From Nemertoderma westbladi (lineage: Eukaryota > Animalia > Xenacoelomorpha), in NCBI GenBank assembly GCA_032718475.1, contig JAUCBJ010007358.1:1-64000 (forward strand): 64,000 nucleotides of DNA, written 5' to 3'. The position numbers were made by a program, and so were the translations under genes. The notes beneath the pieces were generated by a model. It was not told the origin of the DNA, ran no database searches, and saw only the letters and a list, made by a program, of their open reading frames with translations. The first letter of the stretch is position 1. Every line of letters starts with the position of its first letter. Shown here in pieces: positions 3,001 through 62,994 of this stretch.

Positions 3001-3062
3001 TCGGCTTCCGAGTCTGTGTGGGTGTCCATCTCATCGGTGTCGGAGACGTTGTTCGTCGTCAT
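1..3062 (-). mobile_element. Decayed Bel/Pao LTR retrotransposon (gag and RT/RNase H remnants), runs off the window start
   Basis: Collinear broken ORFs at 2841-3062, 2514-2831, 1986-2501, 1355-1999 (gag-like F.GDP.DY..F...KL.YL), 682-1305 (YYLPTHYVV..KIRVANDAAA..SLNSQLYTGP) and 101-655 (IFGAKDSP..FYVDD..RVLGIEWD..IFDPL). Stops and frameshifts are present, and the protease region appears deleted. Confidence 0.88.
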
Positions 3063-14782: not shown

Positions 14783-16274
14783 CAAGGCCTACTAGAGAAA
14801 CAGGCCTGGAATCCGAGATCAAGCCAATTCTATTGAAGGCCTAATAATCCAATGTGTGTGTGTGTGTGACCGGAGCTCTACAGCCCGCATTTCTAAACCA
14901 ATCTGATCGAGTAAGGTATCAAACGAAGCGGAATTGTCATACGATGCTCACCGCACAAAAACATTTTGGTATTCTAGAACATTATTTAGCTATTAATAGC
15001 TATTATTGTAAATTGCAATTTTTCATGTGTAAACCATAGGCTATTATATACTACTACTTCTACTTGGGACTACGTTAGGAGGACAAGCTGGCCGCCGCTA
15101 GCGCTATTCTAGAACATAGATAAATAAAGGTAATAGGATTTATTAATAATATAAATATAATAATAATAAACTGGAATATAATTTTTTTGATGAAATGGAT
15201 GAACCCACCGCAAAAATCGGTCGGTCTGCATGTTAGTAATTGATGTCCTGTTGTAATTTCACAAGAACTCTTAAGTAATATAATAATAATATGTACTGCT
15301 TAAGAATTACACTCAAGAGTTAAAAAAATATTAAATATAGTTATAGTATAGGTTTATAGCATTCACTTCATTGTCGGTCAACGTGATGTCAACACACGAG
15401 GAACACTTGTGCTTCCCAAGTTCACTTGAACATTCAACCTCCAGTTCTGTGTATAGTTTCGCTCGATCAATGCGGTGGGTAAAGAAAACTTCGGCTACGC
15501 TTATATGGAATTTCCCCCAGCAGATTGGCGAAAGTGCCCAAATTAATTAAAATTATAATTAATTAAAATAAATTTAAATAAATTAATTTATTAATTAAAT
15601 TAATTAATTTTATCGTTGGCAAGGAAATCCGACATCTCGTCAATATCCGGATTGCGTTTAGAAGAACTTGCGCGCGTCGTTGAGCGTGGAGGAGCTGGAG
15701 GCGTTGGGATGGAGAGCAGAGGAACATTTGGGAATACCGACGGCGGTTCCGCCGGCACTGGGTATCTCCCGGAATGATGTTTCGTTGTCATCTCTTCGGG
15801 CCAGTGCTTCCGACAAACTCCCATGAAACTCGTAACCTTGCACGGATCTACGATATTCGGAAGTTGCCGCAACCACGTTTGCAATTCCACAGGATCTTTC
15901 GGAAACGCGTAGACCGTAATCGGTGAGGAATTCTCCTCCCCGTCGTCCATACCGGTCAGTTTATCCTTCGCGTTCGCATAACCAGTTCTGCAACCGCCGA
16001 CGGAACACTTCCTTCCCATCGAGTTAACGGTCGTACAGTCGTATCAGGTTGTCACTTTGGTAGTTTATTCGGGTAGACACTCGTGTATTCAGGTAAACAC
16101 TCGAGCAGTCAGGTAGGAAGAGTAAACGATAACATTAATTCAGTGCAGTAGGTAGTTCAAGATTTGTAAACTATAGCAGTAGGCCTATAGGCTTACAGTA
16201 TACCGGTATCAGAATTCTAGGCCTTCAATAATGAAGGCCTGTAGGCTGGCTGCCAGGCCTGTTTCTCTAGTAGG
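14783..16274 (-). mobile_element. P-element/THAP9-like DNA transposon derivative
   Basis: Left end CAAGGCCTACTAGAGAAACAGGCCTGG, right end CCAGGCCTGTTTCTCTAGTAGG. An 8-bp direct repeat ctgttaac lies at 14775-14782 and 16275-16282. Contains a THAP ORF. Confidence 0.7.
15600..16019 (-). pseudogene. THAP zinc-finger domain, N-terminal remnant of a transposase
   Basis: MGRKCSVGGC...FPKDP....W......VCRKHW...PPSVFP matches the C2CH THAP signature. The frame ends in an AT-rich stretch with no catalytic domain. Confidence 0.8.
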
Positions 16275-20822: not shown

Positions 20823-20898
20823 ACTATTATTATTAATTAGCTATTGCTCACCTTGGGTATCTATAAGGGGGGGGGGGGGGGGGTGTGTTTGCGCTCAC

Positions 20899-21188: not shown

Positions 21189-22951
21189 TTGCAGTTACAT
21201 AAACTATCCTTTACTATTGCAGTCACATAAACTAACCTTTACTATTGCAGTCACATAAACTAACCTTTACTATTGCAGTCACATAAACTACCCTTTACTA
21301 TTGCAGTCACATAAACTATCCTTTACTATTGCAGTCACATAAACTAACCTTTACTATTGCAGTCACATAAACTAACCTTTACTATTGCAGTCACATAAAC
21401 TAACCTTTACTATTGCAGTCTCATAAACTAGCCTTTACTATTGCAGACACATAAACTAACCTTTACTATTGCAGACACATAAACTAACCTTTACTATTGC
21501 AGTCACATAAACTAGCCTTTACTATTGCAGTCACATAAACTAGCCTTTACTATTGCTGACACATAAACTAACCTTTACTATTGCAGTCACATAAACTACC
21601 CTTTACTATTGCAGTCACATAAACTAACCTTTACTATTGCAGTCACATAAACTAGCCTTTACTATTGCTGACACATAAACTAACCTTTACTATTGCAGTC
21701 ACATAAACTACCCTTTACTATTGCAGTCACATAAACTAACCTTTACTATTGCAGTCACATAAACTAGCCTTTACTATTGCAGTCACATAAACTAGCCTTT
21801 ACTATTGCTGACACATAAACTAACCTTTACTATTGCAGTCACATATACTACCCTTTACTATTGCAGTCACATAAACTAACCTTTACTATTGCTGACACAT
21901 AAACTAACCTTTACTATTGCTGACACATCAACTAACCTTTACTATGGCAGTCACATAAAGTAACCTTTACTATTGCAGACACATAAACTAGCCTTTACTA
22001 TTGCAGTCACATAAACTAACCTTTACTATTGCAGTCACATAAACTAGCCTTTACTATTGCAGACACATAAACTAGCCTTTACTATGGCAGTCACATAAAT
22101 TAACCTTTACTATTGCAGTCACATAAACTAACCTTTACTATTGCAGTCACATAAACTAGCCTTTACTATTGCAGACACATAAACTAGCCTTTACTATGGC
22201 AGTCACATAAACTAGCCTTTACTATTGCAGTCACATAAACTAACCTTTACTATTGCAGTCACATAAACTAGCCTTTACTATTGCAGTCACATAAACTAAC
22301 CTTTACTATTGCAGTCACATAAACTAGCCTTTACTATTGCAGACACATAAACTAGCCTTTACTATGGCAGTCACATAAATTAACCTTTACTATTGCTGAC
22401 ACATAAACTAACCTTTACTATTGCAGTCACATAAACTAACCTTTACTATTGCAGTCACATAAACTAACCTTTACTATTGCAGTCACATAAACTAGCCTTT
22501 ACTATTGCAGACACATAAACTAGCCTTTACTATGGCAGTCACATAAATTAACCTTTACTATTGCAGTCACATAAACTAGCCTTTACTATTGCAGACACAT
22601 AAACTAACCTTTACTATTGCAGTCACATAAACTAACCTTTACTATTGCAGTCACATAAACTAACCTTTAATATATTGTAGTTACATAAACTAACCTTTAC
22701 TATTGCAGACACATAAAGTAGCCTTTACTATTGCAGTCACATAAACTAGCCTTTACTATTGCAGTCACATAAACTAACCTTTACTATTGCAGTCACATAA
22801 ACTAGCCTTTACTATTGCAGTCACATAAACTAACCTTTACTATTGCTGACACATAAACTAACCTTTACTATTGCAGTCACATAAACTAGCCTTTACTATT
22901 GCAGTCACATAAACTAGCCTTTACTATTGCAGTCACATAAACTAACCTTTA
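21189..22951. repeat. 28-bp minisatellite (~63 copies) containing the exon 8 donor site
   Basis: Unit aaactaacctttactattgcagtcacat; minus strand reads TAAAG|GTTAGTTTATGTGACTGCAATAG. Confidence 0.97.
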
Positions 22952-23114: not shown

Positions 23115-23210
23115 CTAATAATTGAATAAAGTGGAACAAATATAAAGTAAAGTAAAGTAATAACTGGAGTCCCTATCTATAACGGTTAGAGCGATGTTTT
23201 GTTTACGTAC

Positions 23211-29637: not shown

Positions 29638-29779
29638 CTTAAATAATGCAGATCTGAGATTTCTTTCATACAGAGCCAACAGAATTCTAAAGAGCAGATC
29701 GCGCATGTCATATGGTTGCATGATCCATCGTCCATCTTTACAATAAAAGCATTGCAGCGGGGACATGACTTAATCTCAC
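29638..29779 (-). CDS. RNF19A: RNF19-like exon 5 (RING2/Rcat with catalytic Cys)
   Basis: ttacag|GT...TTAAG|gtgaga. Encodes [46 protein letters not shown]. Confidence 0.97.
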
Positions 29780-30002
29780 CTGTAATATAAAGTATAATCA
29801 ATATCACCTATGATATAAAGTTTCATGTCACAATTTCAGATAGTGGCACTCATTAACCGTAAATGAATAAAGTTTTCTCCAACGCTAATTTTTTGCATCG
29901 ATTATTTATTGTTTTCGTTAGAAATCACCGACAATTTCATACGTTAAATATATCATGTTTAAGGATCAGTACTACCACCTGGGTTGAAGTTCTCGGTCCA
30001 AG

Positions 30003-31563
30003 AGTTTGGCACAATGGACCCAAATATGTAGGCTATAGTTTGGCACAATGGACCCGGATATGTAGGCTATAGTTTGGTACAATGGACCCGGATATGTAGG
30101 CTATAGTGTGGCACAATGGACCCGGATATGTAGGCTATAGTTTGGCACAATGGACCCGGATATGTAGGCTATAGTTTGGCACAATGGACCCGGATATGTA
30201 GGCTATAGGTTAGCACAATGGACCCGGATATGTAGGCTATAGTTTGGCACAATGGACCCGGATATGTAGGCTATAGTTTGGCACAATGGACCCGGATATG
30301 TAGGCTATAGTTTGGCACAATGGACCCGGATATGTAGGCTATAGTTTGGCACAATGGACCCGGATATGTAGGCTATAGTTTGGCACAATGGACCCGGATA
30401 TGTAGGCTATAGCTTGGCTGAATGGACCCGGATATGCAGGCTATAGTTTGGCACAATGGACCCGGATATGTAGGCTATAGTTTGGCACAATGGACCCGGA
30501 TATGTAGGCTATAGTTTGGCACAATGGACCCGGATATGTAGGCTATAGTTTGGCACAATGGACCCGAATATGTAGGCTATAGTTTAGCTGAATGGACCCG
30601 GATATGTAGGCTATAGTTTGGCACAATGGACCCGGATATGTAGGCTATAGTTTGGCACAATGGACCCGGATATGTAGGCTATAGTTTGGCACAATGGACC
30701 CGGATATGTAGGCTATAGTTTGGCACAATGGACCCGGATATGTAGGCTATAGCTTGGCTGAATGGACCCGGATATGCAGGCTATAGTTTGGCACAATGGA
30801 CCCGGATATGTAGGCTATAGTTTGGCACAATGGACCCGGATATGTAGGCTATAGTTTGGCACAATGGACCCGGATATGTAGGCTATAGTTTGGCACAATG
30901 GACCCGAATATGTAGGCTATAGTTTAGCTGAATGGACCCGGATATGTAGGCTATAGTTTGGCACAATGGACCCGGATATGTAGGCTACAGTTTGGCACAA
31001 TGGACCCGGATATGTAGGGGTAGGCTATAGTTTGGCACAATGGACCCTGATATGTAGGGGTAGGCTATAGTTTGGCACAATGGACCCTGATATGTAGGCT
31101 ATAATTGGCACAATGGACCCGGATATGTAGGGGTAGGCTATAGTTTGGCACAATGGACCCTGATGTGTAGGCTATGGTTTGGCACAATGGACCCGGATAT
31201 GTAGGCTATAGTTTGGCACAATGGACCCGGATATGTAGGCTATAGTTTGGCACAATGGACCCGGATATGTAGGCTATAGTTTGGCTGAATGGACCCGGAT
31301 ATGTAGGCTATAGTTTGGCACAATGGACCCGGATATGTAGGCTATCGTTTGGCACAATGGACCCGGATATGTAGGCTATAGTTTGGCACACTGGAACCGG
31401 ATATGTAGGCTATAGTTTGGCTGAATGGACCCGGATATGTAGGCTATAGTTTGGCACAATGGACCCGGATATTTAGGTTACAGTTTGGCACAATGGACCC
31501 GGATATGTAGGGGTAGGCTATAGTTTGGCACAATGGACCCGGATATGTAGGCTATAGTTTGGC
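30003..31563. repeat. 34-bp minisatellite, ~46 copies
   Basis: Unit agtttggcacaatggacccggatatgtaggctat. Confidence 0.97.
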
Positions 31564-33452
31564 CGACCCAGCCAGACTCCGACCCATCCAGACTCCGACC
31601 CAGCCAGACTCCGCCCCAACCAGACCCCTCCCAACCAGACTCCGACCCAGCCAGACTCCGACCCAACCAGACCCCGACCCAGCCAGACTCCGACCCAGCC
31701 AGACTCCGAGCCAACCAGACTCCGCCCCAACCAGACCCCGACCCAACCAGACCCCGATCCAACCAGACCCCGACCCAACCAGACCCCGACCCAACCAGAC
31801 TCCACCCCAACCAGACCCCGACCCAACCAAACTCCGACCAAACCAGACCCCGACCCAGCCAGACCCCGACCCAACCAGACCCCGACCCAACCAGACCACA
31901 ACCCAAACAGACCCCGACCCAACCAGACCCCGACCCAACCAGACCCCACCCAACCAGACCCCGACACAACCAGACTCCGCCTCAACCAGACCCCGACCCA
32001 GCCAGACTACGACCCAACCAGACCTCGACCCGCCCCAACCAGACCCCGACCCGCCCCAACCAGACCCCGACCCGCCCCAACCAGACTCCGACCCAACCAG
32101 ACTCAGACCCAATCAGACCCCGACCGAACCAGACCCAACCAGACCCCGACCCAGCCAGACTCCGACCCAACCAGACTCCGACCCAGCCAGACTCCGACCC
32201 AACCAGACCCCGACCCAACCAGACCCGCCCTAACCAGACTCCGACACAACCAGACCCCGACCCAGCCAGACTCCGACCCAACCAGACTCCGACCCAACCA
32301 GACCCCGACCCAACCAAACTCCGACCCAACCAGACCCCGATCCAACCAGACCCCGACCCAACCAGACCCCGACCCAACCAGACTCCGCCCCAACCAGACC
32401 CCGACCCAACCAAACTCCGACCAAACCAGACCCCGACCCAACCAGACCCCGACCCAACCAGACCACAACCCAAACAGACCCCGACCCAACCAGACCCCGA
32501 CCCAACCAGACCCCACCCAACCAGACCCCGACACAACCAGACTCCGCCTCAACCAGACCCCGACCCAACCAGACCCCGACCCAACTAGACTCCGACCCAA
32601 CAAGACCCCGACCCAACCAGACCCCGAATACCAACCAGAGCCCGACCCAACCAGACCCCGACCCAACCAGACCCCGACCCAACCAGACCCCGACCGAACC
32701 AGACCCCGACCCAACCAGACCCCGACCCAACCAGACCCCGACCCAAACAGACCCCGACAACCAACCAGACCCCGACCCAACCAGACCCCGACCCAACCAG
32801 ACTCCACCCCAACCAGACCCCGACCCAACCAAACTCCGACCAAACCAGACCCCGACCCAGCCAGACCCCGACCCAACCAGACCCCGACCCAACCAGACCA
32901 CAACCCAAACAGACCCCGACCCAACCAGACCCCGACCCAACCAGACCCCGACCCAACCAGACCCCGACCGAACCAGACCCCGACCCAACCAGACCCCGAC
33001 CCAACTAGACTCCGACACAACAAAACCACGACCCAACCAGACACCGACCCAACCAGACTCCGACCCAACCAGACCCCGACCCAACCAGACGCCGACTCAA
33101 CCAGACCCCGACCCAACCAGACTCCAACCCAGCTTGACCCCGACCCAACCGTCAGAATTCGACCCAACCAGACTCCGACCCAACCAGACCCCGACCCAGC
33201 CAGACTCCGACCTAACCAGACTCCAACCCAGCTTGACTCCGACCCAACCAGACTCCGACCCAACCAGACTCCGACCCAGCTTGACTCCGACCCAACCAGA
33301 CCCCGACCCAACCAGACTCCAACCCAGCTTGACCCCGACCCAACCAGACCCCGACCCAACCAGACCCCGTTCCAACCAGACCCCGACCCAACCAGACCCC
33401 GCCCCAACCAGACTCGCCCCAACCAGACCCCGACCCAGCCAGACTCCGACCC
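31564..33452. repeat. 17-bp C-rich minisatellite (~110 copies), related to the 47-bp array and the exon 4 end
   Basis: Unit accagaccccgacccaa / gccagactccgacccaa. Confidence 0.96.
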
Positions 33453-41867: not shown

Positions 41868-44670
41868 CGGGAACTTCTTGATAAGCTTCCACAAACGAAG
41901 AGAGCTGACCCAAACCTAGACCTTGACCTCGACAAACTCCCTACAACCCGGGCATTAGGTGTTAAGTGGGACACGGAGGCAGATACCTTCAGTATTAAAG
42001 TCAGCCCAAGAAAGTTTCCAACTACAAAACGGAATTGTTTATCTAGTTTGGCATCTATTTATGACAAATTAGGATTAGTTGCTCCTGTATTACTTATCGG
42101 CAAGAGATTTATGCGGGAGTTGTCCATATCAACCCCTAGCTGGGATACCCAATTGGATGTTGAGTTTCTTACACGTTGGAACGAATGGAGTCGCCAGTTG
42201 GACTGTTTGAACGAACTCTCATTACCCCGTGCTTATTTTTCGAATCGCTTGAGTTCAGATCGCATAGAACTCCATATATTTTGTGATGCCTGTGAGACTG
42301 GATTAGGAGCTGTTGCATACCTGCGTCAACTTAGGAGAGCTTTGACAGAAGAAACACCAAATACCATTATCAATGAAAGTTGCAAACAACCGCAATATGA
42401 AGTATCGACAGCATTTGTACTGGCAAAAACCAGAACTGCGCGAAAGAAGTTTGTTTCTATACCCCGAAAGGAGTTGCAATCTTGTGTTCTTGCCACTAGA
42501 ATGTCAATCATAATACATGATGAAGTAGAACTATTTATAAATGCGACACATTTTTGGAGTGATTCCAGAACGTCGTTACAATACATAGCAAACCAGGATA
42601 AAAGGTACCCAACCTACATAATTAATAGAGTCGGTGAAATCGTCAAGAGTACTAATCCAAATCAATGGCATCATGTGAAGGGAATAGACAATGTAGCTGA
42701 CATGGCCAGTCGTGGGGCGTTCCCACTAGACTTCATTGATAAGTTTGACCTATGGTCAAAAGGACCCCAATTCTTACAAACTGATGAACTAGAATGGCCA
42801 AATGCTACTCAGCAATATACTGGTAAGGACTTGGATCCTACTGCTGAAATAAAATCTAAACGCAAAGTTAATGACATGGGCCCACGAGACGATATAGAAC
42901 CTATCCCTACTAGTTCGATAGACTATGCACAATTACATTCAATTGATGTGATGATAACAATCGAAACACCTACAAATACCACAAATCTGTTACTAGACAA
43001 GCTGCTTTCATATTATGGAGATTGGATTCCTTTGATTAGAACTGTTGCTTGGTTGGTGCGTTTTAAAATGTGGTATATTCGCTCATTTCGCTTAAGACGT
43101 AGTCTTAAGCAAAGGTTAATACCAAAGAAGAAGATTAAGGTACTACCGAAATCATTATGTTCTAATGCAAAGTCAGTCAATGATAAAGAAGGAACAGTGA
43201 AGCCTGTGAACAAACCCAAGAAAAAACAAACGATACAAGTTGTGAAACGCGATGTGTTAAACTCTCTGCCAAAACCAGCACCAAAATCACAGTATCCTCT
43301 AACATTAGCCGAGGTGCAGGATGCACGTGTCCTTGTATTGAAATATTCACAACAAAAGACATATCCAACTTAACTAGCAAGTTTGAAAGTGAACAAACCC
43401 ATACACAGAAACAGCAACATATTTAAGTTATGTCCCTTTCTAGGAGAGGATGGCCTAATACGTATGAACAGCCGATTGGTGAAGACACCAACAAACCCTG
43501 ATATGGCACAACCCATAATCCTATCCTCCAGTTGCCCAGTGACCAGGTTGATAGTGAGGTATACACATTCAGAGAACATGCACACAGGCAGAGATCATAC
43601 TTTGGCGATAGTAAGACAAATTTATTGGATTGTGGGGGGACCTGCAAAGCTCGCAACCCAACGCCACTTAACCAAATAATGGCACCTCTACCCATCGATC
43701 GCATTACAGCATTTGAACCCTGCTTTACCTACACTGGTGTTGATTATTGGGGATTTATGCTTGTACAACAGGGCAGAAGATCTGTGAAGATGTGGGGCGT
43801 AATTTTTACTTGCCTAGTCTCTCGAGCCGTTGCACTAGACTTAGCGGAAGATCTATCTGCAAGCACATTCATAAACTGCTTCCGTAGATTTGTCTGCCAA
43901 TATGGAAATGTAAAACTACTCAGATCCGACAATGGAACAAATTTCGTCGGAGCCGAAACCGAATTATCTGACGCAATCGACCACTGGGACGTTTCACGAA
44001 TTCAACACAACTTAGGCCCTCAAACGAAATTTGAGTTCCAAGTACCTTATGCACCTCACACATCTGGAGTTTGGGAACGATTGAATCGGCCTGCTAAGGA
44101 CGCTTTACGTGTTGCCCTAGGAAACAAGCTAGTCACCGAAGGCGTAGTGAGAACAGCACTCGCTGAGGCAGCAAGAATTATGAACTCAAGACCGCTCTGT
44201 AAAGTAACAGATGATCCGACTGCCGACCAGGTACTGACACCAAACGACTTGTTATTACGTAAGATAGTTTCACCTTGCCCTGGGGTATATGAGGAGGGTG
44301 ATATATATTGTCGAAAGACCTGGAAGCAGGCACAGGCATTGACTGAAATATTCTGGGATAGATGGCTTCTAGAATACTTACCGCTGTTGCGAGAAAGACA
44401 AAAGTGGTTCACTAAGAAAAGAAACCTACAACCAGGCGACCTTGTACTTCAAATGACAGACACAAAGAATAGACGAACGTGGATCACCGGGGTGATAGAC
44501 TCTGTAAATCTAGGATCCGACGGTTGTGTTAGATCAGCACAAGTTAGGTGTGGCGGCACAATCTACTCTAGACATGTCACAAAGCTATGCTTGCTCGAGG
44601 CGACAATTACAGAGGAAGAAACTGACGCAAAACGAGCAAATGAGGACTCAGCAGATTCGTCTGTAAATTC
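41868..44670 (+). pseudogene. Bel/Pao RNase H and integrase portion (broken)
   Basis: In frame after the stop: RALGVKWD..LHIFCDA..SIPRKEL..FWSDS..NVADMASRG. Integrase: TGVDYWG..SDNGTNF..GVWERL..NSRPL..FWDRWLLEYLPLL. Confidence 0.9.
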
Positions 44671-46040
44671 GACTCCCCAATACTTACTAGACATTGTTAG
44701 AGACCCCGACCCAACCAGACTCCCCAATACTTACTAGACATTGTTAGAGACCCCGACCCAACCAGACTCCCCAATACTTACTAGACATTGTTAGAGACCC
44801 CGACCCACCCAGACTCCCCAATACTTACTAGACATTGTTAGAGACCCCGACCCAACCAGACTCCCCAATACTTACTAGACATTGTTAGAGACCCCGACCC
44901 AACCAGACTCCCCAATACTTACTAGACATTGTTAGAGACCCCGACCCACCCAGACTCCCCAATACTTACTAGACATTGTTAGAGACCCCGACCCAACCAG
45001 ACTCCCCAATACTTACTAGACATTGTTAGAGACCCCGACCCACCCAGACTCCCCAATACTTACTAGACATTGTTAGAGACCCCGACCCAACCAGACTCCC
45101 CAATACTTACTAGACATTGTTAGAGACCCCGACCCAACCAGACTCCCCAATACTTACTAGACATTGTTAGAGACCCCGACCCAACCAGACTCCCCAATAC
45201 TTACTAGACATTGTTAGAGACCTCGACCCAACCAGACTCCCCAATACTTACTAGACATTGTTAGAGACCCCGACCCAACCAGACTCCCCAATACTTACTA
45301 GACATTGTTAGAGACCCCGACCCACCCAGACTCCCCAATACTTACTAGACATTGTTAGAGACCCCGACCCAACCAGACTCCCCAATACTTACTAGACATT
45401 GTTAGAGACCCCGACCCACCCAGACTCCCCAATACTTACTAGACATTGTTAGAGACCCCGACCCAACCAGACTCCCCAATACTTACTAGACATTGTTAGA
45501 GACCCCGACCCAACCAGACTCCCCAATACTTACTAGACATTGTTAGAGACCCCGACCCAACCAGACTCCCCAATACTTACTAGACATTGTTAGAGACCCC
45601 GACCCAACCAGACTCCCCAATACTTACTAGACATTGTTAGAGACCCCGACCCAACCAGACTCCCCAATACTTACTAGACATTGTTAGAGACCCCGACCCA
45701 ACCAGACTCCCCAATACTTACTAGACATTGTTAGAGACCCCGACCCAACCAGACTCCCCAATACTTACTAGACATTGTTAGAGACCCCGACCCAACCAGA
45801 CTCCCCAATACTTACTAGACATTGTTAGAGACCTCGACCCAACCAGACTCCCCAATACTTACTAGACATTGTTAGAGACCCCGACCCACCCAGACTCCCC
45901 AATACTTACTAGACATTGTTAGAGACCCCGACCCAACCAGACTCCCCAATACTTACTAGACATTGTTAGAGACTCCGATCCAGCTAGACTCCCCAATACT
46001 TACTAGACATTGTTAGAGACTCCGATCCAGCTAGACTCCC
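44671..46040. repeat. 47-bp minisatellite (~29 copies) made of the exon 4 3' end plus its donor site
   Basis: Unit ctccccaatacttactagacattgttagagaccccgacccaaccaga; minus strand reads ..GTCTCTAACAATGTCTA|GTAAGTATTGGGGAG. Confidence 0.97.
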
Positions 46041-46415
46041 TTGTATGCGGCCACCAAAAGCGTCTCGCCCCCTTCTCGCTGCTTCGCACGTCATATTTGG
46101 GTGCCAGAATTGTTTGCAATGGTAACAGAAGCAGGTGTCGCACCCCGGACGTCCACACACAATGCGGGGACAACTGGCGCATCCGGTTGCGATAACAGCG
46201 TAACCGCAATCGGGTGTGGGGCACCATCGGCAGTCCGGGTCCGTAGCCAGAAGTCGACGGAGGGTGAACTCCTCGTACTTAAGGAATACCGAGGAGGAAT
46301 CCACGCCGAGGATCGCCTTTATATCGTTGGGATGGAGACGTTCCGAGCATTCCGGACAGCTGATGTTGGTACGGCTCTCCGAGATCTCGATACGGATGTA
46401 TTGCTGGATACAGTC
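46004..46415 (-). CDS. RNF19A: RNF19-like exon 4 (end of RING1 plus IBR)
   Basis: ctttag|GAC...TCTA|gtaagt. Encodes [85 protein letters not shown]. Confidence 0.97.
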
Positions 46416-49400
46416 CTAAAGGGGGGGGGGGGGGGGGGGGTGTAAATGGAAGGATACAGTCCGAAATGGGGGATTCCCGATTGTAAATGGAAGGGTACAA
46501 TCCTAAAGGTGGGAGTGTAAATTAAAGGATGCAGCCCTAAAGGGGGGGGGGGGGGAGTGTAAATGGAAGGATACAGTCCTAAAGGGGGGAGTGTAAATGG
46601 AAGGATACAGTCCTAAAGGGGGGGGGGGGGGGAGTGTGAATGGAAGGATACAGTCCTAAATAGGGGAGTGTAAATGGAAGGATACAGTCCTAAGGGGGGG
46701 GGGGGTAAATTGAAGGATACAGTCCTAAATAGGGGAGTGTAAATGGAAGGATACAGTCCTAAAGGAGGGAGTGTAAATGGAAGGATACAGTCCTAAATAG
46801 GGGAGTGTAAATGGAAGGATACAGTCCTAAATAGGGGAGTGTAAATGGAAGGATACAGTCCTAAAGGTGGGAGTGTAAATGGAAGGATACAGTCCTAAAG
46901 GGTGGGGGGGGGGGGAGTGTAAATGGAAGGATACAGTCCTAAATAGGGGAGTGTAAATGGAAGGATACATTCCTAAATGGGGGAGTGTAAATGGAAGGAT
47001 ACAGTCCTAAATAGGGGAGTGTAAATGGAAGGATACAGTCCTAAATAGGGGAGTGTAAATGGAAGGATACAGTCCTAAAGGAGGGAGTGTAAATGGAAGG
47101 ATACAGTCCTAAATAGGGGAGTGTAAATGGAAGGATACAGTCCTAAATAGGGGAGTGTAAATGGAAGGATACAGTCCTAAAGGAGGGAGTGTAAATGGAA
47201 GGATACAGTCCTAAATAGGGGAGTGTAAATGGAAGGATACAGTCCTAAATAGGGGAGTGTAAATGGAAGGATACAGTCCTAAATAGGGGAGTGTAAATGG
47301 AAGGATACAGTCCTAAATAGGGGAGTGTAAATGGAAGGATACAGTCCTAAATAGGGGAGTGTAAATGGAAGGATACAGTCCTAAATAGGGGAGTGTAAAT
47401 GGAAGGATACAGTCCTAAAGATGGGAGTGTAAACGAAAGGATGCAGCCTTAAAAGGGGGGAGGGGGGGGGGGGGGTGTAAATGGAAGGATACAGTCCTAA
47501 AGGTGGGAGTGTAAATGGAAGGATACAGTCCTAAAGGTGGGAGTGTAAATGGAAGGATACAGTCCTAAATAGGGGAGTGTAAATGGAAGGATACAGTCCT
47601 AAAGGAGGGAGTGTAAATGGAAGGATACAGTCCTAAATAGGGGAGTGTAAATGGAAGGATACAGTCCTAAAGATGGGAGTGTAAACGAAAGGATGCAGCC
47701 TTAAAAGGGGGGAGGGGGGGGGGGGGTGTAAATGGAAGGATACATTCCTAAAGGAGGGAGTGTAAATGGAAGGATACAATCCGAAATGGGTGATTGTAAA
47801 TGGAAGGATACAGTCCTAAAGGTGGGAGTGTAAACGAAAGGATGCAGCCTTAAAGGGGGGGGGGGGGGGGGGGGGTGTAAATGGAAGGATACATTCCTAA
47901 AGGAGGGAGTGTAAATGGAAGGATACAGTCCTAAATAGGGGAGTGTAAATGGAAGGATACAGTCCTAAATAGGGGAGTGTAAATGGAAGGATACAGTCCT
48001 AAATAGGGGAGTGTAAATGGAAGGATACAGTCCTAAAGATGGGAGTGTAAACGAAAGGATGCAGCCTTAAAAGGGGGGAGGGGGGGGGGGGGGTGTAAAT
48101 GGAAGGATACAGTCCTAAAGGAGGGAGTGTAAATGGAAGGATACAGTCCTAAATAGGGGAGTGTAAATGGAAGGATACAGTCCTAAATAGGGGAGTGTAA
48201 ATGGAAGGATACAGTCCTAAATAGGGGAGTGTAAATGGAAGGATACAGTCCTAAAGGGGGATAGTAAATGGAAGGATACCCGATACAGTCCTAAAGGGGG
48301 GAGTGTAAATGGAAGGATACAGTCCTAAATAGGGGAGTGTAAATGGAAGGATACAGTCCTAAAGGAGGGAGTGTAAATGGAAGGATACAGTCCTAAATAG
48401 GGGAGTGTAAATGGAAGGATACAGTCCTAAATAGGGGAGTGTAAATGGAAGGATACAGTCCTAAATAGGGGAGTGTAAATGGAAGGATACAGTGGAAGGA
48501 TACAGTCCGAAATGGGGGGATTGTAAATGGAAGGATACAGTCCTAAAGGAGGGAGTGTAAATGGAAGGATACAGTCCTAAATAGGGGAGTGTAAATGGAA
48601 GGATACAGTCCTAAAGATGGGAGTGTAAACGAAAGGATGCAGCCTTAAAAGGGGGGAGGGGGGGGGGGTGTAAATGGAAGGATACATTCCTAAAGGAGGG
48701 AGTGTAAATGGAAGGATACAATCCGAAATGGGTGATTGTAAATGGAAGGATACAGTCCTAAAGGTGGGAGTGTAAACGAAAGGATGCAGCCTTAAAGGGG
48801 GGGGGGGGGGGGGGGGTGTAAATGGAAGGATACATTCCTAAAGGAGGGAGTGTAAATGTAGGGGGTGTAAATGGAAGGATACAGTCCTAAAGATGGGAGT
48901 GTAAACGAAAGGATGCAGCCTTAAAAGGGGGGAGGGGGGGGGGGGTGTAAATGGAAGGATACAGTCCTAAAGGAGGGAGTGTAAATGGAAGGATACAGTC
49001 CTAAATAGGGGAGTGTAAATGGAAGGATACAGTCCTAAATAGGGGAGTGTAAATGGAAGGATACAGTCCTAAATAGGGGAGTGTAAATGGAAGGATACAG
49101 TCCTAAAGGGGGATAGTAAATGGAAGGATACAGTCCTAAAGGGGGGAGTGTAAATGGAAGGATACAGTCCTAAATAGGGGAGTGTAAATGGAAGGATACA
49201 GTCCTAAAGGGGGGGGGAGTGTAAATGGAAGGATACAGTCCTAAATAGGGGAGTGTAAATGGAAGGATACATTCCTAAAGGAGGGAGGGTAAATGGAAGG
49301 ATACAGTCCTAAAGATGGGAGTGTAAATGGAAGGATACAGTCCTAAATAGGGGAGTGTAAATGGAAGGATACATTCCTAAAGGAGGGAGTGTAAATGGAA

Positions 49401-52385
49401 GGATACAGTCCTAAATAGGGGAGTGTAAATGGAAGGATACAGTCCTAAAGGGGGGGGGAGTGTAAATGGAAGGATACAGTCCTAAATAGGGGAGTGTAAA
49501 TGGAAGGATACATTCCTAAAGGAGGGAGGGTAAATGGAAGGATACAGTCCTAAAGATGGAGTGTAAATGGAAGGATACAGTCCTAAATAGGGGAGTGTAA
49601 ATGGAAGGATACATTCCTAAAGGAGGGAGTGTAAATGGAAGGATACAGTCCTAAATAGGGGAGTGTAAATGGAAGGATACATTCCTAAAGGAGGGAGTGT
49701 AAATGGAAGGATACAGTCCTAATAGGGGAGTGTAAATGGAAGGATATAGTCCTAAAGGGGGGGGGGAGTGTAAATGGAAGGATACAGTCCTAAATAGGGG
49801 AGTGTAAATGGAAGGATACATTCCTAAAGGAGGGAGGGTAAATGGAAGGATACAGTCCTAAAGATGGGAGTGTAAATGGAAGGATACAGTCCTAAATAGG
49901 GGAGTGTAAATGGAAGGATACATTCCTAAAGGGAGGGAGGGTAGAATGGAAGGATACAGTCCTAAAGATGGGAGTGTAAATGGAAGGATACAGTCCTAAA
50001 GGGGGGGGGGAGTGTAAATGGAAGGATACAGTCCTAAATAGGGGAGTGTAAATGGAAGGATACATTCCTAAAGGAGGGAGGGTAAATGGAAGGATACAGT
50101 CCTAAAGATGGGAGTGTAAATGGAAGGATACAGTCCTAATGGGGGGAGTGTAAATGGAAGGATACAGTCCTGAAGGGGGGAGTAAATGGAAGGATACAGT
50201 CCTAAAGGATGGAGTGTAAATGGAAGGATACAGTCCTAAAGGGGGGGAGTGTAAATGGAAGGATACAGTCCTAAAGGGGGGGGGGAGTGTAAATGGAAGG
50301 ATACAGTCCTAAATAGGGGAGTGTAAATGGAAGGATACAGTCCTAAATAGGGGAGTGTAAATGGAAGGATACATTCCTAAAGGAGGGAGGGTAAATGGAA
50401 GGATACAGTCCTAAAGATGGGAGTGTAAATGGAAGGATACAGTGCTAAAGGGGGGAGTGTAAATGGAAGGATACAGTCCTAAATAGGGGAGTGTAAATGG
50501 AAGGATACAGTCCTAAATAGGGGAGTGTAAATGGAAGGATACAGTCCCAAATAGGGGAGTGTAAATGGAAGGATACAGTCCTAAATAGGGGAGTGTAAAT
50601 GGAAGGATACAGTCCTAAATAGGGGAGTGTAAATGGAAGGATACAGTCCTAAATAGGGGAGTGTAAATGGAAGGATACAGTCCTAAAGGTGGGAGTGTAA
50701 ATGGAAGGATACAGTCCTAAATAGGGGAGTGTAAATGGAAGGATACAGTCCTAAATAGGGGAGTGTAAATGGAAGGATACAGTCCTAAATAGGGGAGTGT
50801 AAATGGAAGGATACAGTCCTAAATAGGGGAGTGTAAATGGAAGGATACAGTCCTAAATAGGGGAGTGTAAATGGAAGGATACAGTCCTAAATAGGGGAGT
50901 GTAAATGGAAGGATACAGTCCTAAATAGGGGAGTGTAAATGGAAGGATACAGTCCGAAATGGGGGATTGTAAATGGAAGGATACAGTCCTAAAGATGGGA
51001 GTGTAAATGGAAGGATACAGTCCTAAAGATGGGAGTGTAAATGGAAGGATACAGTCCTAAATAGGGGAGTGTAAATGGAAGGATACAGTCCTATATAGGG
51101 GAGTGTAAATGGAAGGATACAGTCCTAAATAGGGGAGTGTAAATGGAAGGGTACAGTCCTAAATAGGGGAGTGTAATTGGAAGGATACAGTCCTAAATAG
51201 GGGAGTGTAAATGGAAGGATACAGTCCTAAAGATGGGAGTGTAAATGGAAGGATACAGTCCTAAATAGGGGAGTGTAAATGGAAGGATACAGTCCTAAAT
51301 GGGGGAGTGTAAATGGAAGGATACAGTCCTAAATAGGGGAGTGTAAATGGAAGGATACAGTCCTAAATAGGGGAGTGTAAATGGAAGGATACAGTCCTAA
51401 AGGGGGGGAGTGTAAATGGAAGGATTCAGTCCTAAATAGGGGAGTGTAAATGGAAGGATACAGTCCTAAATAGGGGAGTGTAAATGGAAGGATACAGTCC
51501 TAAAGGGGGGGAGTAAATTGAAGGATACAGTCCTAAAGATGGGAGTGTAAATGGAAGGATACAGTCCTAAATAGGGGAGTGTAAATGGAAGGATACAGTC
51601 CTAAATAGGGGAGTGTAAATGGAAGGATACAGTCCTAAAGGTGGGAGTGTAAATGGAAGGATACAGTCCTAAAGGGTGGGGGGGGGGGGAGTGTAAATGG
51701 AAGGATACAGTCCTAAATAGGGGAGTGTAAATGGAAGGATACAGTCCTAAATAGGGGAGTGTAAATGGAAGGATACAGTCCTAAATAGGGGAGTGTAAAT
51801 GGAAGGATACAGTCCTAAATAGGGGAGTGTAAATGGAAGGATACAGTCCTAAATAGGGGAGTGTAAATGGAAGGATACAGTCCTAAAGGTGGGAGTGTAA
51901 ATGGAAGGATACAGTCCTAAAGGGGGGGGGGGGGGGGAATGTAAATGGAAGGATACAGTCCTAAATAGGGGAGTGTAAATGGAAGGATACATTCCTAAAG
52001 AGGGGAGTGTAAATGGAAGGATACATTCCTAAAGAGGGGAGTGTAAATGGAAGGATACAGTCCTAAAGAGGGGTGTAAATGGAAGGATACACTCCTAAAG
52101 GGGAGGGGGGAGGGAGAGTAAATAGAAGGATACACCCCTAAGCGGGGGGGGAGTAAATGGAAGGATACAGTCCTAAATAGGGAAGTGTAAATGGAAGGAT
52201 ACAGTCCTAAATAGGGGAGTGTAAATGGAATGATACACTCCTAAAAGGGGGGGGGGGTGTAAATGGAAGGATACAGTCCTAAAGGGGGGAGTGTAAATGG
52301 AAGGATACAGTCCTAAAGGGGGGGGGGAGTGTAAATGGAAGGATACAGTCTTAAAGAGGTGGGGGGGTGTAAATGGAAGGGACAG
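46406..52385. repeat. 34-bp minisatellite (~170 copies) made of the exon 4 acceptor site; fills intron 3
   Basis: Unit tgtaaatggaaggatacagtcctaaataggggag; minus strand reads CTCCCCTATTTAG|GACTGTATCCTTCCATTTACA. Confidence 0.97.
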
Positions 52386-52407
52386 TTAGTGCGGACTATA
52401 AACTAAC

Positions 52408-52586
52408 CATGCACGACCTGTGTTCGCAGGTAACAACATTAGCGAAGTTGCTCTTGGGTTGATTGGTTAGACATAAAGGGCATTCATCGGTAGCTGATGG
52501 AGAGAATGTCTCGGTACGGGAAGGTTTCCGGCTCTTAGAGCTACTGATTGATGGCGGGTGGGTGGAATATGTAGAAGACAGTTCGC
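52408..52586 (-). CDS. RNF19A: RNF19-like exon 3 (start of RING1)
   Basis: taacag|GC...TGCATG|gttagt. Encodes ..DECPLCLTNQPKSNFANVVTCEHRSCM. Confidence 0.95.
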
Positions 52587-52719
52587 CTGTTAAATATAAA
52601 CAAACTGGATTTAATAGTCAGGTCAGGTCCCCAGATCCTGCTACCACTATGGCAGTAATGTGGTATTACCTGTAGCTGTCAGCCCAGTAGGGCAGGCCCG
52701 ATAAGCATAGCCTATTCAT

Positions 52720-55700
52720 TATTTAGTTGATCAAGAGTGGGTTGGTTTTAGCCCCGTCAACTAAATAAGTCATTGAGGGCTATAGCGCCTCGGGCACCAT
52801 TGAAGGCAAAGGCCTGATACGCATCTGCAATAGAGATGATAAACGCCCCGCCCTGTCTATACTGGATGCTCCTCTACCAGTGTTAGGTAACCTAACCCTG
52901 GAGGCACACTTGGTTCAGGGTGTAACAAATGGACCCCTACAGTCGGCAGCAGGGCTGTAGGCCATGATAGGCGGAAGGTAATCAACCAACGGCTAGACAT
53001 GCTGACAAGGTCGGCGGAAGGTAATCAACCAACGGCGACCTACTGCGAAGACGCTTGTAGGAGTTGCGACCATAAGCGGTTTACTCTCGCAACTGAAAGA
53101 TATGAGTATGAGAACCCTCCAGGAGAAATACCGGCTCGGTCGTCGCCCGGGTCAACAAGGACCGCGTCCCTCAGTGGTACACCAGGCTGGGGTCGATAAG
53201 TTGGCTACTAGAACAAATGACAGAGAAGAAAGAAGAACCAACCTGTTGAAATGTAAAAAGACACTAAAGATTGCTACAATGAGCGCACGCATGCTGAAAG
53301 CACATAGCAAACAGGGTGACATGGTCGCTCTGGCAATGGAGTATAACATCGACATCATCTGCATCCAAGAACATCGGATTTGTCATGAAGACACTGCCAT
53401 GAAGTACAATGACATTGGAAATGGATGGACGTTAGTAACAAGCTCAGCAGTAACAAACTCGGCCAATGCATCAATTGGTGGAGTAGGAATTCTGCTAAGC
53501 CCATTTGCACTTAAGACCCTAAACAACATCGAATCTATAAATTCCAGGGTTATGATCGCAACATTTGATGGGAATCCCAAGGCAACAGTTATATGTTGCT
53601 ACAGTCCAACCAATTCCTCAGAGCCAGAACAAGCAGTCAAGTTTTATGAAGAACTGACTGGACTTATTAAGGACATCCCGAAACACAATGTTAAAGTCAT
53701 TGCTGGTGACCTGAATGCGCAAATTGGCCCAGAAGAAATCAAGGGTTACACACTATAACACCAGTTCTAACAGAAATGGGTACTTACTTTTAGACCTAAT
53801 GGAAGAATGTGAATTGATACCAACAAACAACACATTCGAAAAGAGTAAGGGGAAGCTATGGACCTTTCAATACCCTAATGGAACCAAAGCACATCTGGAT
53901 TACATGCTTATAAACAAAAAGTGGAGAAACAGCATGATCAACTGCGAGGCATACAGCTCGTTCAACCTAATTGGTTCGGACCACAGAATTGTGACTGCAG
54001 AGATCAGACTCAGTTTGAGAGCCAGCAAACCCAGGACAAGCAAGCAAATCAAATATGACTGGGAGAAACTCAGAACTGACAATGCTGTAAAGGATGCTTA
54101 TACAGTAGAAGTTCAAAACCGCTTTGAAGCACTTCAGTCAATGGATGAAGACCAATCCACCAATTCAATATACCAGAATATAATAACAGCCCACAAGGAA
54201 TCAGCTAAGAGGCATATCCCCCAGAAACCCAAACGAAAACAGTATGTGCCATGGCAAAACTTGTTACTTGTAAGAGAGACGATCTTAAGGAGGGGGGGGG
54301 GTAGCGCATTTTCTCACCAAAAAGACGAATTTTTGAAACATATCCTATCTGATGCAGAATTTCATGCTGAATCCAAATATGGAAACCGTTTTCCGATATC
54401 TTGCTTAGTTTTCGAGATATCTGGGATAGAAGATACTGGCTCCGATATATCGCGATATCGGTAAAGGCGATGAAGTTTGGGGTTTGCATTCAATTTATGC
54501 AAATTTCTCTGCTCAGTGTGCCAATTGGATGTCATTGGAAATGGATGGACGTTAGTAACAAGCTCAGCAGTAAGAAATTCGGCCAATGCATCAATTGGTG
54601 GAGTAGGAATTCTGCTAAGCCCATTTGCACTTAAGACCCTAAACAACACCGAATTTATAAATTCCAGGGTTATGATCGCAACATTTTATGGGAATCCCAA
54701 GGCAACAGTTATATGTTGCTACAGTCCAACCAATGCCTCAGAACCAGAACAAGCAGTCAAGTTTTATGAAGATCTGACTGGACTTATAAAGGACATCCCG
54801 AAACACAATGTAATATGTTATAATATAATATAATATTATATAATATAATAAAGCGAGTGAATTAGATGAAATCTCAGCGGAGGTATGGAAAACCGGAGTG
54901 CTAAACAGACCATTATTGAATGTTTGCAACCGGATGTTAAAAGGGGAAAAGCCACCACCAATTTGGACTAAAGGTCAACTAAAGCCTCTCCCCAAGAAAG
55001 GAGACCTCGGCATACCAACAAACTATCGTGGGATCTGTCTGCTTGTGGAAGCTGCCAAAATATACAATAAAATGATTCTATATAGGATTAGGCCTAACAT
55101 AGAGAAACTACTCCGTAAGAGCCAAAACGGATTTCGACCAAGCAGATCAACAATAGCTCAGATACTTGCATTACGGAGACTGATTGAAGGAATTAAGTCA
55201 AAAAATCTCCCCGCAGTCATGACTCCATCCATAGAGGTAAAATGCTTGAAATCCTAAGAGCTTATGGAATACCAGAAGTAATTGTTGCTGGCATTGGATT
55301 GTTATATTGTGACACAGAAGCGCAGGTACTCTCACCAGATGGTGAAACTGAGTTTTTCTCAATCCTGGCTGGCGTACTGCAAGGTGACACATTAGCACCA
55401 TTACTATTTGTAATTGTGCTGGATTACGCAATGCGGACGGCCACAAAGGGTGAAGATCTGGGATTCACACTTCAAGAACGCAGAAGTAGTAGATATCCGG
55501 CAACTACAGTCACAGACACCGACTTTGCGGATGACATCGCCCTGCTCTCTAATACGCTAGCAGATGCACAGCTTCTACTAAATAAAGTGGAGAGGGCTGC
55601 TAAGGAGGTTGGATTGCATATAAATGCTACAAAGACCGAATTCATGACCTTTAATGTTGATGGGAACTTGACAACCATTGATAATAATCAACTAAGGAAG

Positions 55701-56283
55701 GTCGATGACTTCCAGTACCTTGGATCAAGGATAGAGAGTAGTAAAAAGGACATAGAAGTTAGGAAAACAAAGGCTTGGGTAGCTCTATCAAAAATGGATA
55801 CCATCTGGAAATCAGATCTCTCCAGGCACCTGAAGACCAAGTTCTTTCGAGCCACAGTGGAAAGTGTATTTTTATACGGGGGTGAGACCTGGACACTGAC
55901 TAAATCACTTGAACAACGAATTGATGGTTGCTACACAAGACTACTAAGGGCAGCCCTAAACATCAGCTGGAGACAACACATGACAAACGCCGAGCTTTAT
56001 GGTACAATACCACCTGTATCCACCACCCTCTGTGAACGCAGATTGAGATTCAATGGGCACTGCTGGAGAAGTTAAGACGAGGTCATACCGATCTACTTTT
56101 CTGGCAACCAACTCATGGAAAGCGTAGTCGTGGACGACCGGCCATAACATATATAGATCAACTTGAAAGGGATACTGAACTTGGGAGAAACGAAATTGGA
56201 AATTGCGACAACTATGGAGAATCGGGAAGCCTGGAAGGATCTCATTTCCACTGACCGAGTTCGCTCGACCTAGTAGTAGTAGG
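52720..56283 (+). mobile_element. RTE family 2 LINE, long but rearranged copy (5' region, APE endonuclease, foreign insert, duplicated EN piece, RT, tail); 5' boundary approximate
   Basis: EN motifs CIQEHR, CYSPT, AGDLNAQIG, HLDYML, SDHRIV. 54530-54810 duplicates 53410-53690. RT motifs PKKGDL..NYRGI, GVLQGD, FADD. (TAG)n tail at 56271-56282. Confidence 0.92.
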
Positions 56284-56410
56284 ATTTAATTAATTTAATT
56301 TAATTAAACCAATAGCGATAAGTCAACAAATCAAAGGACATATTATTATGGAGTTACGCCTCCCTGCGAATATAATATAATAGTTTGCAGGCACTCTCAC
56401 TCCCACCTAC

Positions 56411-56555
56411 CGGCATTGGATTGTGCGCTGATACTCTGGGCCGAATCATCAGACGGGACCCTCGGACGTCTAGACGGTCGCCTAGAGAACAACCGACGGA
56501 GTGAGAACTGGATGTCGTTACTGATAAACGAGTTGTTTCTACGGGTTCTACGTTC
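56411..56555 (-). CDS. RNF19A: RNF19-like exon 2
   Basis: ttatag|GAA...GCCG|gtaggt. Encodes ERRTRRNNSFISNDIQFSLRRLFSRRPSRR..; phases fit exons 1 and 3. Confidence 0.8.
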
Positions 56556-62058: not shown

Positions 62059-62307
62059 CATTATGGGGCTGTTGTTGCGACGAAAATTGATTCCATTGTC
62101 ACTGACTTCAACGTTCACGTTGTTTTTACTTCCAACACCTGTGACTCCATTGTTGTGACTTTTAAACGGCTCACCAATGTCACAGTAATCGGTTGCGCTG
62201 CTGCTTCTAGACACACCAGGAGCAGCACCCAACGTGGAGGTACCGGTACCACCAGATGCTGAACCCAATGTTGTAGCTGTTGGCCGACAACAAACCTCGC
62301 CCTGCAT
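62059..62307 (-). CDS. RNF19A: RNF19-like putative first coding exon
   Basis: ATG at 62307, 83 open codons, donor ATG|gttagt in phase 0 matching exon 2. Low-complexity sequence, so there is no homology support. Confidence 0.6.
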
Positions 62308-62994
62308 AATGTATAGGAGGTGATAGGCCTACCGGAAATCAGAAATTATATCGCGTTTTGTCTGAATCCAGAATCAATCAGTTCAGCCTCAGCATAACAC
62401 CAGACTGCCAGAACGAGAACAGTAGAGTGTACCGAGTAGTGCATAGTGAGTAGACCTACCTGTCCTGTAGCCTACCGTATGACTGTATGTCTGTATGACC
62501 GTTAGCAGTTAGTGCAGTAGTGCTGTAGTGGTAGCAGTGGACTGTCTGAGTGTCTGCCTGTGGCTGTCAGGCTGTGGGTCTACATGTGGTAATAATCGGT
62601 TTCAACTTTCATTCAAGGCCCTCCGGCCTCCAGTCTGCCAGTGTCCAGGCAAGGCTCGAGTCGGGGATTTTTAGCCTATACAGGCTGAAGGGCGAAGGGC
62701 CTAGTGCTGTAGTCGTGTAGTTGTAGTGTAGGCCTATGCTGCTATGAATTTCGTAACCAAACTACTGCTACAGTGCTGTAGCCTGTAGGCAGGTAGGCCT
62801 ACTGCTATTCCAGTATTCGAAATAATTAGAAACTGGCTGACTGGCAACAGCAACGAACCGACGAACAGGGCAATAATAATTAGGCCTATTAAACGGTCCT
62901 ACTAAAAACCGCAACTTACCGCAATTTACCGCAACTTACCGCAATTTACCGCAACTAACCGCAATTTACCGCAACTAGTTGTTATTTTCAAGCA

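What the first reader, a model, noticed from the sequence alone, without database searches (positions are those of the whole stretch)
46406..52407. A 6-kb intron made almost entirely of its own 3' splice site
Seen: apart from ~25 nt after the donor, intron 3 is ~170 copies of pyrimidine tract + TTTAG|GACTGTATCC, identical to the true acceptor plus the first 10 exon bases. Only the last AG (46416-46417) gives an intact RING1. The true site has a ~21-nt C tract. The nearest upstream copy has lost its AG (TTTCG at ~46461-46465) and the next few copies are diverged. Established: 3' splice site choice usually takes the first AG after the branch point. Inference: correct splicing here needs exon definition or suppression of ~170 decoys, or stepwise re-splicing.
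Basis: partly seen in the sequence, partly recalled or inferred. Interest (0 to 1): 0.8.

Follow-up and report, generated by a model that had tools for sequence, protein, structure and literature searches.

The report
Giant splice-acceptor "mirage" fills RNF19 intron
In an animal ubiquitin-ligase gene, the end of one intron plus the first ten bases of the next exon is repeated about 170 times and fills a 6-kb intron, yet the assembled RNA is spliced at the last, real copy, likely because splice sites are paired across the exon; it is an unusually large example of a repeat type already known from lancelets.

Summary
Observation confirmed, with small corrections. Intron 3 (52407-46416, minus strand, 5,992 nt) of an RNF19-type RBR ligase is a 57-nt lead plus 169 units of about 34 nt. 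154 decoy junctions keep the AG; 123 match the true TTTAG|GACTGTATCC exactly. All 166 other AGs give premature stops. One RNA-like run holds a 2,572-nt contig joining exon 3 to the true acceptor with no inserted base, and exon 4 to the first of about 29 donor copies: both exon borders are amplified and the innermost pair is used. Two DNA-like runs hold the junction and array words at high depth, so an assembly artefact is unlikely. Recursive splicing is not supported (no AG|GT among 167 AGs). The true tract is U-poorer than every decoy, and both array edges are diverged, so the local cues look weak. Best reading: a 'mirage' minisatellite (amphioxus Adh3/globins; human F7 VNTR is the donor-side equivalent), tolerated by exon definition (inferred), perhaps with NMD clean-up. 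The scan noted this kind before in other genomes (8 notes; those giving a count report 3 to about 35 copies). New here: the size, and decoys from 95 nt after the donor that still lose.

The parts
62059..62336 (-). RNF19 exon 1, ending in ATG|GT; the 5' end is approximate
56411..56555 (-). RNF19 exon 2
   Evidence: X1 contig joint 52585-56410 skipping 3,824 nt, CT..AC
52408..52586 (-). RNF19 exon 3, first half of RING1, ends ATG|GTTAGT
46416..52407 (-). Intron 3, 5,992 nt, almost wholly the acceptor array
   Evidence: skipped by the X1 contig (record positions 1969/1970 adjacent)
52351..52407 (-). 57-nt lead: donor, about 21 nt of non-repeat sequence with the intron's only CTAAC, then a diverged partial unit ending TTTAA; likely relic of the original short intron
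   Evidence: ancestry inferred
46416..52350 (-). 169 tandem units, modal length 34 nt: 10 nt of exon-4 head plus 24 nt of intron end (TTTAC, pyrimidine tract, AG)
52313..52314 (-). First decoy AG in the true register; using it would define a 95-nt intron
46462..46466 (-). Nearest upstream junction, AG lost (TTTCG)
46421..46440 (-). 20-nt C run of the true acceptor; last TTTAC A lies 28 nt from the intron end
46416..46417 (-). True 3' splice-site AG, the one used in the spliced contig
46004..46415 (-). RNF19 exon 4 (412 nt): second half of RING1 and IBR
44671..46003 (-). Mirror donor array at the start of intron 4: 47-nt unit, 28 further CTA|GTAAGT copies; the first donor is used
29638..29779 (-). 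RNF19 exon 5 (RING2)
   Evidence: loose end of the X1 contig before 46002 is exon 5
21189..22946 (-). Second donor array of the gene, intron 8: 28-nt unit, about 63 copies, 29 with AAAG|GTTAGT and 22 with AAAG|GCTAGT
   Evidence: exon 8/9 borders from homology and frame, not from RNA

Best explanation
Intron 3 of this RNF19 gene is a minisatellite made of its own intron-exon boundary (a 'mirage'), the assembled RNA is spliced at the last copy, and this is likely because the spliceosome first pairs sites across exon 4, where the last AG and the first donor are the closest pair. Shown: the anatomy, the spliced junctions in one RNA-like run, a premature stop after every decoy, array words at high depth in two DNA-like runs. 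Inferred origin: a short intron of about 57 nt duplicated its last 24 nt plus 10 exon bases, probably by slippage at an ACTGT-CC microhomology between intron lead and exon head, then grew by unequal exchange, leaving higher-order blocks and diverged edges. Inferred tolerance: only the last copy is followed by real exon sequence and by a donor at the shortest distance (412 nt against 499 nt or more); any leak to decoys would make stop-containing RNA that NMD would remove. The array most likely has no selected function.
For: Spliced contig of run X1 (2,572 nt, depth 1,313): exon 3 base 52408 = record 1970 and exon 4 base 46415 = record 1969, so nothing is inserted; exon 4 lies on it with 0 other letters and 0 gaps and continues into exon 5 from the first donor. 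Both borders of exon 4 are amplified (154 AG-keeping decoys upstream, 28 donor copies downstream) and the innermost pair is used; in human data sites closest across the exon are preferred when flanking introns are long (PMC9225289, passages), and only the most upstream donor is used in the F7 VNTR (PMC1557585, abstract and Discussion). The exon head is ancestral coding sequence: D at this position in 104 of 120 homologues, next to the Cys that the search motif fixed, so the array copied the exon. The true acceptor is not locally stronger in U content: 3 T in the 20 nt before the AG against 4-9 in all 154 decoys (8 in 111) and 10-14 in the gene's other eight acceptors. Edge divergence is symmetric, as described for mirage clusters (PMC3087553). 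No significant fold at the 3' end (z -1.08).
Against: Exon definition itself was not tested; the supporting rules come from human data, and there the exon-side preference for 3' sites is only a weakening of the upstream preference. Exon 4 is long (412 nt), and five TTTAG decoys in the true register lie within 250 nt of donor 3, where intron definition should favour them. The AG-free stretch before the true site is the longest of 166 and the C run the longest before an AG, which fits some local tuning. RNA evidence is one run, held as assembled contigs that drop rare forms and reflect steady state. The run is labelled 'DNA?' and is taken as RNA from its GT-AG joints.
Confidence: 0.65

Rival explanations
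1. Leaky choice with clean-up: decoys, above all those within 250 nt of donor 3 that are transcribed first, are used often, and the products are destroyed by NMD, so only correct mRNA accumulates. Array length would then set RNF19 output. Not exclusive of the best explanation; it differs in how large the leak is.
For: All 166 non-authentic AGs give a premature stop far upstream of later junctions. The first in-register decoy would define a 95-nt intron, a size at which upstream acceptors are preferred in human data.
Against: In the F7 VNTR, pseudo-sites that would not cause a stop are also unused, so NMD does not explain silence there. Amphioxus RT-PCR suggested no interference with splicing.
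Confidence: 0.18
2. Local tuning by selection: the true acceptor wins through its own signals, namely loss of the nearest AG (87-nt gap) and a 20-nt C run bound by a poly(C)-binding protein, and these were selected after the array arose.
For: Longest AG gap of 166 and longest C run before an AG both sit at the true site. Long C runs (11 or more) go with AG loss in 7 of 14 interior units against 6 of 153 others. C-rich tracts can be enhanced by alphaCP/PCBP in mammals (PMC4797308, abstract).
Against: TTTCG also occurs at 4 interior junctions, and the 7 long-C units without AG look like copies of one higher-order block. The 5' edge is as diverged as the 3' edge. Seven interior units have long C runs with an intact AG. 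C/G runs of 12 or more occur 11 times outside this intron, so they are a general feature of this DNA. This could not explain the mirror choice at the donor array.
Confidence: 0.12
3. Stepwise (recursive) removal: exon 3 is spliced to a decoy and re-spliced along the array.
For: Regularly spaced acceptors; each unit has a GT four bases after the AG.
Against: Ratchet points are juxtaposed acceptor and donor (PMC8605326, search listing). 0 of 167 AGs is followed by GT. Use of the +5 GT (ACT|GTATCC, far from the gene's donors) would leave 4 nt in the mRNA; the contig has none.
Confidence: 0.02
4. Assembly artefact or silent gene copy.
For: No contig spans the array, so its exact length rests on the assembly; X2 and X3 may be the source of this DNA.
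Against: 58 distinct unit types in ordered blocks. X2 and X3 contigs carry the C-tract/exon junction and stop at the array edges; summed depth on the unit is 1,775 against 14.1 on exon 4 (X2) and 1,187 against 5.55 (X3). For the donor array the X3 ratio is 22.2 against 21.9 expected from the window. X2 differs from the window at 52546 and 56391, so it is another haplotype that also holds array words. The gene is spliced in X1.
Confidence: 0.03

Closest known systems
Amphioxus 'mirage' minisatellites (Adh3, troponin C, globins BflGb6/BflGb9, PGBD5; PMC3087553 and PMC3902484, passages read)
   Same: Tandem copies spanning an intron-exon boundary; BflGb6 has the same acceptor-side layout (intron 3' end plus exon 5' part); many but not all units keep the splice signal; mRNA is spliced normally; edge units escape homogenisation; both borders can be affected.
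   Different: 169 units here against 3-6 (BflGb6) and 2-7 (PGBD5); the array is nearly the whole intron and starts 21 nt after the upstream donor; one exon is amplified on both sides. Adh3 copy numbers could not be read. No closely matching amphioxus protein was among the 120 best hits; the phylum is unresolved.
Human F7 intron 7 37-bp VNTR (PMC1557585; abstract and Discussion read)
   Same: A VNTR whose end unit spans the exon border; identical pseudo-sites stay silent and the exon-proximal site is used. The 47-nt and 28-nt donor arrays of this gene are direct analogues.
   Different: Donor side, five to nine sites; there the pseudo-sites were shown to be functional by mutation, which is untested here. 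Here the acceptor side, where the decoys are transcribed before the real site.
Recursive splicing / ratchet points (search listing only)
   Same: Acceptor-like sites inside a long intron.
   Different: Needs AG|GT; absent here (0 of 167).
RNF19A/B (Dorfin) RBR E3 ubiquitin ligases
   Same: Host gene: exon 4 is 62-73% identical to the 120 best hits, the named ones mostly RNF19A/B or RBR-type; IBR domains; open frame across ten predicted exons.
   Different: The protein is ordinary; only the introns are unusual.

Membership tests
Mirage minisatellite | Tandem repeat whose unit spans an intron-exon boundary | tested here: met
   Unit = 24 intron nt + 10 exon nt; 169 units; 148 copies of the junction 12-mer with at most 1 mismatch in intron 3, 0 for the other eight acceptors in their introns
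Mirage minisatellite | Many but not all units keep the splice signal | tested here: met
   154 decoy junctions keep AG, 14 have lost it, 1 fragment
Mirage minisatellite | mRNA is spliced at the authentic site | tested here: met
   X1 contig, one run, steady state
Mirage minisatellite | Length instability between haplotypes | tested here: inconclusive
   Donor-array depth ratio 3.3 in X2 against 22.2 in X3; one acceptor-array 31-mer about 43x in X2 against 97 copies of the likely same word in the window. Contig depth is not a copy number and library bias is not excluded
Mirage minisatellite | Homogenised interior, diverged edges | tested here: met
   Unique units 8/10 and 6/10 at the edges, 27/149 inside
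F7-type pseudo-site VNTR | Pseudo-sites are functional when the authentic site is mutated | not testable with these tools
   Needs minigenes
Recursive splicing (ratchet points) | AG directly followed by a donor GT | tested here: not met
   0 of 167
Intron gain by tandem duplication of an AG/GT proto-splice site (as summarised in PMC3087553) | Both donor and acceptor of the intron come from the duplicated unit | tested here: not met
   The donor lies outside the array and has 0 copies in the intron; the array enlarged an intron, it did not create one
Distant-branch-point exon with AG exclusion zone (PMC1431707) | Long AG-free zone with the branch point at its 5' end | tested here: inconclusive
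   87-nt AG gap, but a TTTAC lies 28 nt from the intron end; branch point not mapped
RNF19 RBR ligase (host gene) | RING1-IBR-RING2 followed by hydrophobic segments | tested here: met

The most novel reading that the evidence does not exclude
In this lineage, boundary-anchored minisatellites turn roughly 60-100-nt introns into multi-kilobase ones (introns 3 and 8 have only about 57 and 100 nt left when reduced to one unit; 4 of 9 large arrays touch or span an exon border), forcing a switch from intron to exon definition. The array length varies between individuals and acts as a splicing VNTR, setting how much RNF19 transcript leaks to decoys and NMD, and the last units carry a signature of selection against leak.
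Probability: 0.15. Interest if true: 0.6.

Novelty: new member of a known kind. Interest (0 to 1): 0.32.

Why it matters
It is a ready-made natural test of how a 3' splice site is chosen: 154 near-identical acceptors are transcribed first, five of them within 250 nt of the donor, and the one 6 kb away is used. With the mirror donor array on the same exon, it separates exon definition from intron definition, first-come choice and NMD clean-up more sharply than the published cases read here, which have 2-9 copies. It also warns that ab initio annotation and short-read mapping will fail at such genes. The kind of repeat is known and has turned up repeatedly in this scan, so it is an extreme example, not a new mechanism.

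Tried and rejected
No whole genome is held, so genome-wide frequency of such arrays could not be measured. No RNA holder was listed as such; X1 was recognised as spliced only by laying it. X1 shows no cover on the unit body (bin 46455-46475: 0, where X2 and X3 have 944 and 444) and none on 52300-52406 (its bin depth of 330.5 equals the exon-3 share). This would fit little decoy-containing RNA at steady state, but contigs show presence, not absence, and tables were cut, so it is not used as evidence. The 92 short X1 records near the C run (the seven shown are 31 nt with 3-4 mismatches) are low-complexity and uninformative. X4 barely covers this locus (2 records) although it is the same sample as X2; unexplained. 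A simulation of contig depth from the window's own 31-mers did not reproduce the tool's laying (173 against 22 on the donor array), so the summed depths are not calibrated copy numbers. A tree of 33 rows (the window's RBR region plus 32 of 120 hits, most fish left out; quick method) left the gene on a long branch outside the starred vertebrate, echinoderm and spiralian sets; phylum unresolved. RNA structure as a mask for decoys: not supported (z -1.08, 341 nt tested). A first motif count failed through a faulty pattern and was redone. The original Adh3 mirage paper is not held and is cited second-hand.

Full report
Gene. The window holds an RNF19-type RBR ubiquitin ligase gene on the minus strand. 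Exon 4 (46415-46004) is 62-73% identical to the 120 best of 996 hits, the named ones mostly RNF19A/B or RBR-type ligases, and carries a Pfam IBR domain. Ten predicted exons give one open frame of about 580 codons. A quick tree leaves it on a long branch outside the supported vertebrate, echinoderm and spiralian sets, so the phylum is unresolved. No whole genome is held.

Observation. Intron 3 runs 52407-46416 (5,992 nt, phase 0, splitting RING1 at HRSCM|DCIQ). It consists of a 57-nt lead and 169 units, modal length 34 nt, 58 distinct types, the modal one 58 times. A unit is the first 10 exon bases plus the last 24 intron bases. 123 decoys match TTTAG|GACTGTATCC exactly (0 in 200 shuffles); 154 keep the AG, 14 have lost it and one unit is a fragment. 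All 166 AGs other than the last lead to a premature stop. The first copies are as diverged (unique units 8 of 10 at the 5' edge, 6 of 10 at the 3' edge, 27 of 149 inside) and TTTCG recurs at four interior junctions.

Real and expressed. Three runs of one organism hold exon 4. Run X1, labelled 'DNA?', has a 2,572-nt contig (depth 1,313) that skips intron 2 at a CT..AC joint and whose loose ends lead from exon 3 into exon 4 and from exon 4 into exon 5; I take it as RNA. Exon 3's last base and exon 4's first base are adjacent in the record (1970, 1969): the true AG is used and nothing is inserted. Runs X2 and X3 behave as genomic: contigs cover exon 4 with the C tract and stop at the array edges, and array words lie at 100-200 times the exon's depth when summed (not a calibrated count). 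For the neighbouring donor array the X3 ratio (123.4/5.55 = 22.2) matches the window's mean word count (21.9), which supports the assembly, while X2 gives 3.3, a hint of length polymorphism. X2 differs from the window at two places near exons 2-3. X2 and X3 may be sources of this DNA.

The other border of exon 4 is amplified too: intron 4 opens with a 47-nt array holding 28 more copies of the donor, and the contig uses the first. Intron 8 opens with about 63 copies of a 28-nt unit spanning the exon-8 donor (29 with GT, 22 with GC), and the exon-9 donor is duplicated once. Of nine large arrays in the gene, three span a splice site and one ends 20 nt from one, against 1.8% of array-free intron DNA within 25 nt of an exon (binomial P about 1e-5). 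That test is post hoc, on one gene, and overstates the case, because introns 3 and 8 shrink to about 57 and 100 nt with one unit left, like intron 7 (96 nt): an array born in a short intron must touch an exon.

Origin (inferred). The exon head encodes D-C; D is present in 104 of 120 homologues beside the RING1 Cys, so the array copied the exon border. The lead contains ACTGTCCC just before the repeated intron part and the exon begins GACTGTATCC, a microhomology that would seed a slippage duplication; it could also be a decayed first copy. Higher-order blocks and diverged edges point to growth by unequal exchange.

Mechanism. Each unit has a branch-point-like TTTAC (167 copies), so the first-AG rule (PMC1431707, passages) does not choose between copies. 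The true tract is not better by U content: 3 T in 20 nt against 4-9 in all 154 decoys and 10-14 in the gene's other eight acceptors. No fold hides the decoys. What is unique to the last AG is the exon behind it and the shortest distance to a donor (412 nt, next 499). Using the innermost acceptor and the innermost donor is the pattern reported for exon definition in human genes, clear for donors and weaker for acceptors (PMC9225289, passages). I put this at 0.65. The awkward fact is that five in-register TTTAG decoys lie within 250 nt of donor 3, where intron definition should favour them. Leak with NMD clean-up (0.18) cannot be excluded from steady-state contigs. Local tuning (0.12) has the longest AG gap (87 nt, 1 of 166) and the longest C run for it, with PCBP-type binding as a possible route (PMC4797308, abstract), but C/G runs of 12 or more occur 11 times elsewhere in the window. 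Recursive splicing fails its sequence test: 0 of 167 AGs is followed by GT.

What is known. Tandem repeats spanning exon-intron borders are described in amphioxus as 'mirages' (Adh3, globins, troponin C, PGBD5); BflGb6 has the same acceptor layout with 6 and 3 units, and splicing was reported as normal (PMC3087553 and PMC3902484, passages; their supplements were not read; the Adh3 paper is not held). The human F7 VNTR is the donor-side case with five to nine sites (PMC1557585, abstract and Discussion). In ten searches I saw no published boundary array near 170 units, but most hits were seen only as listings, the library lacks most subscription papers, and Adh3 copy numbers are unknown to me. 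Earlier notes of this scan list eight such arrays or gene cases in other genomes, those giving a count with 3 to about 35 copies (unchecked, consulted after I had reached the mirage reading); none is noted for this genome.

Verdict. Real, spliced correctly in the one RNA-like run, a new and very large member of a known kind. Its value lies in being a sharp natural test of acceptor choice. Interest 0.32.

Noticed in passing
window 44671-46003: Donor-side mirage of exon 4; from unit 2 on, part of the exon copy is replaced by a motif that matches the 16-nt unit of the array at 31563-33452. Depth ratio 3.3 in X2 against 22.2 in X3 hints at a strong length polymorphism.
   Followed up: partly
window 21189-22946: About 63 x 28-nt array spanning the exon-8 donor; 29 copies keep GT, 22 read GC; use of any of the 29 GT copies would give a stop. 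RNA junction not checked.
   Followed up: partly
window 20850-20898: Single duplication of the exon-9 end plus donor, separated by a 17-nt C run.
   Followed up: partly
window 23115-23210: The 96-nt intron 7 carries three blocks (9, 8, 12 nt) matching the second half of exon 7 in order: a decayed duplication of the exon end.
   Followed up: partly
window 29975-30010 and 17507-19023: The end of the 34-nt array at 30003-31563 continues into sequence that matches the 42-nt unit of the array at 17507-19023, so different arrays appear to arise from pieces of one dispersed element.
   Followed up: no
window 52600-56300: Intron 2 is filled by high-copy LINE-like fragments (endonuclease- and RT-like ORFs, recognised by eye) with very high depth in X2-X4.
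   Followed up: no
window 15603-16043: 147-aa minus-strand ORF with a C-x4-C start and a later C-x2-H that looks like a THAP-type zinc finger (recalled resemblance, not tested).
   Followed up: no
window 685-3125 and 43502-44734: Fragments that look like BEL/Pao LTR retrotransposon gag/pol and integrase (recalled resemblance, not tested).
   Followed up: no
whole window: 24 C/G runs of 12 nt or more (13 in intron 3, 11 outside) and no A/T run of that length.
   Followed up: no
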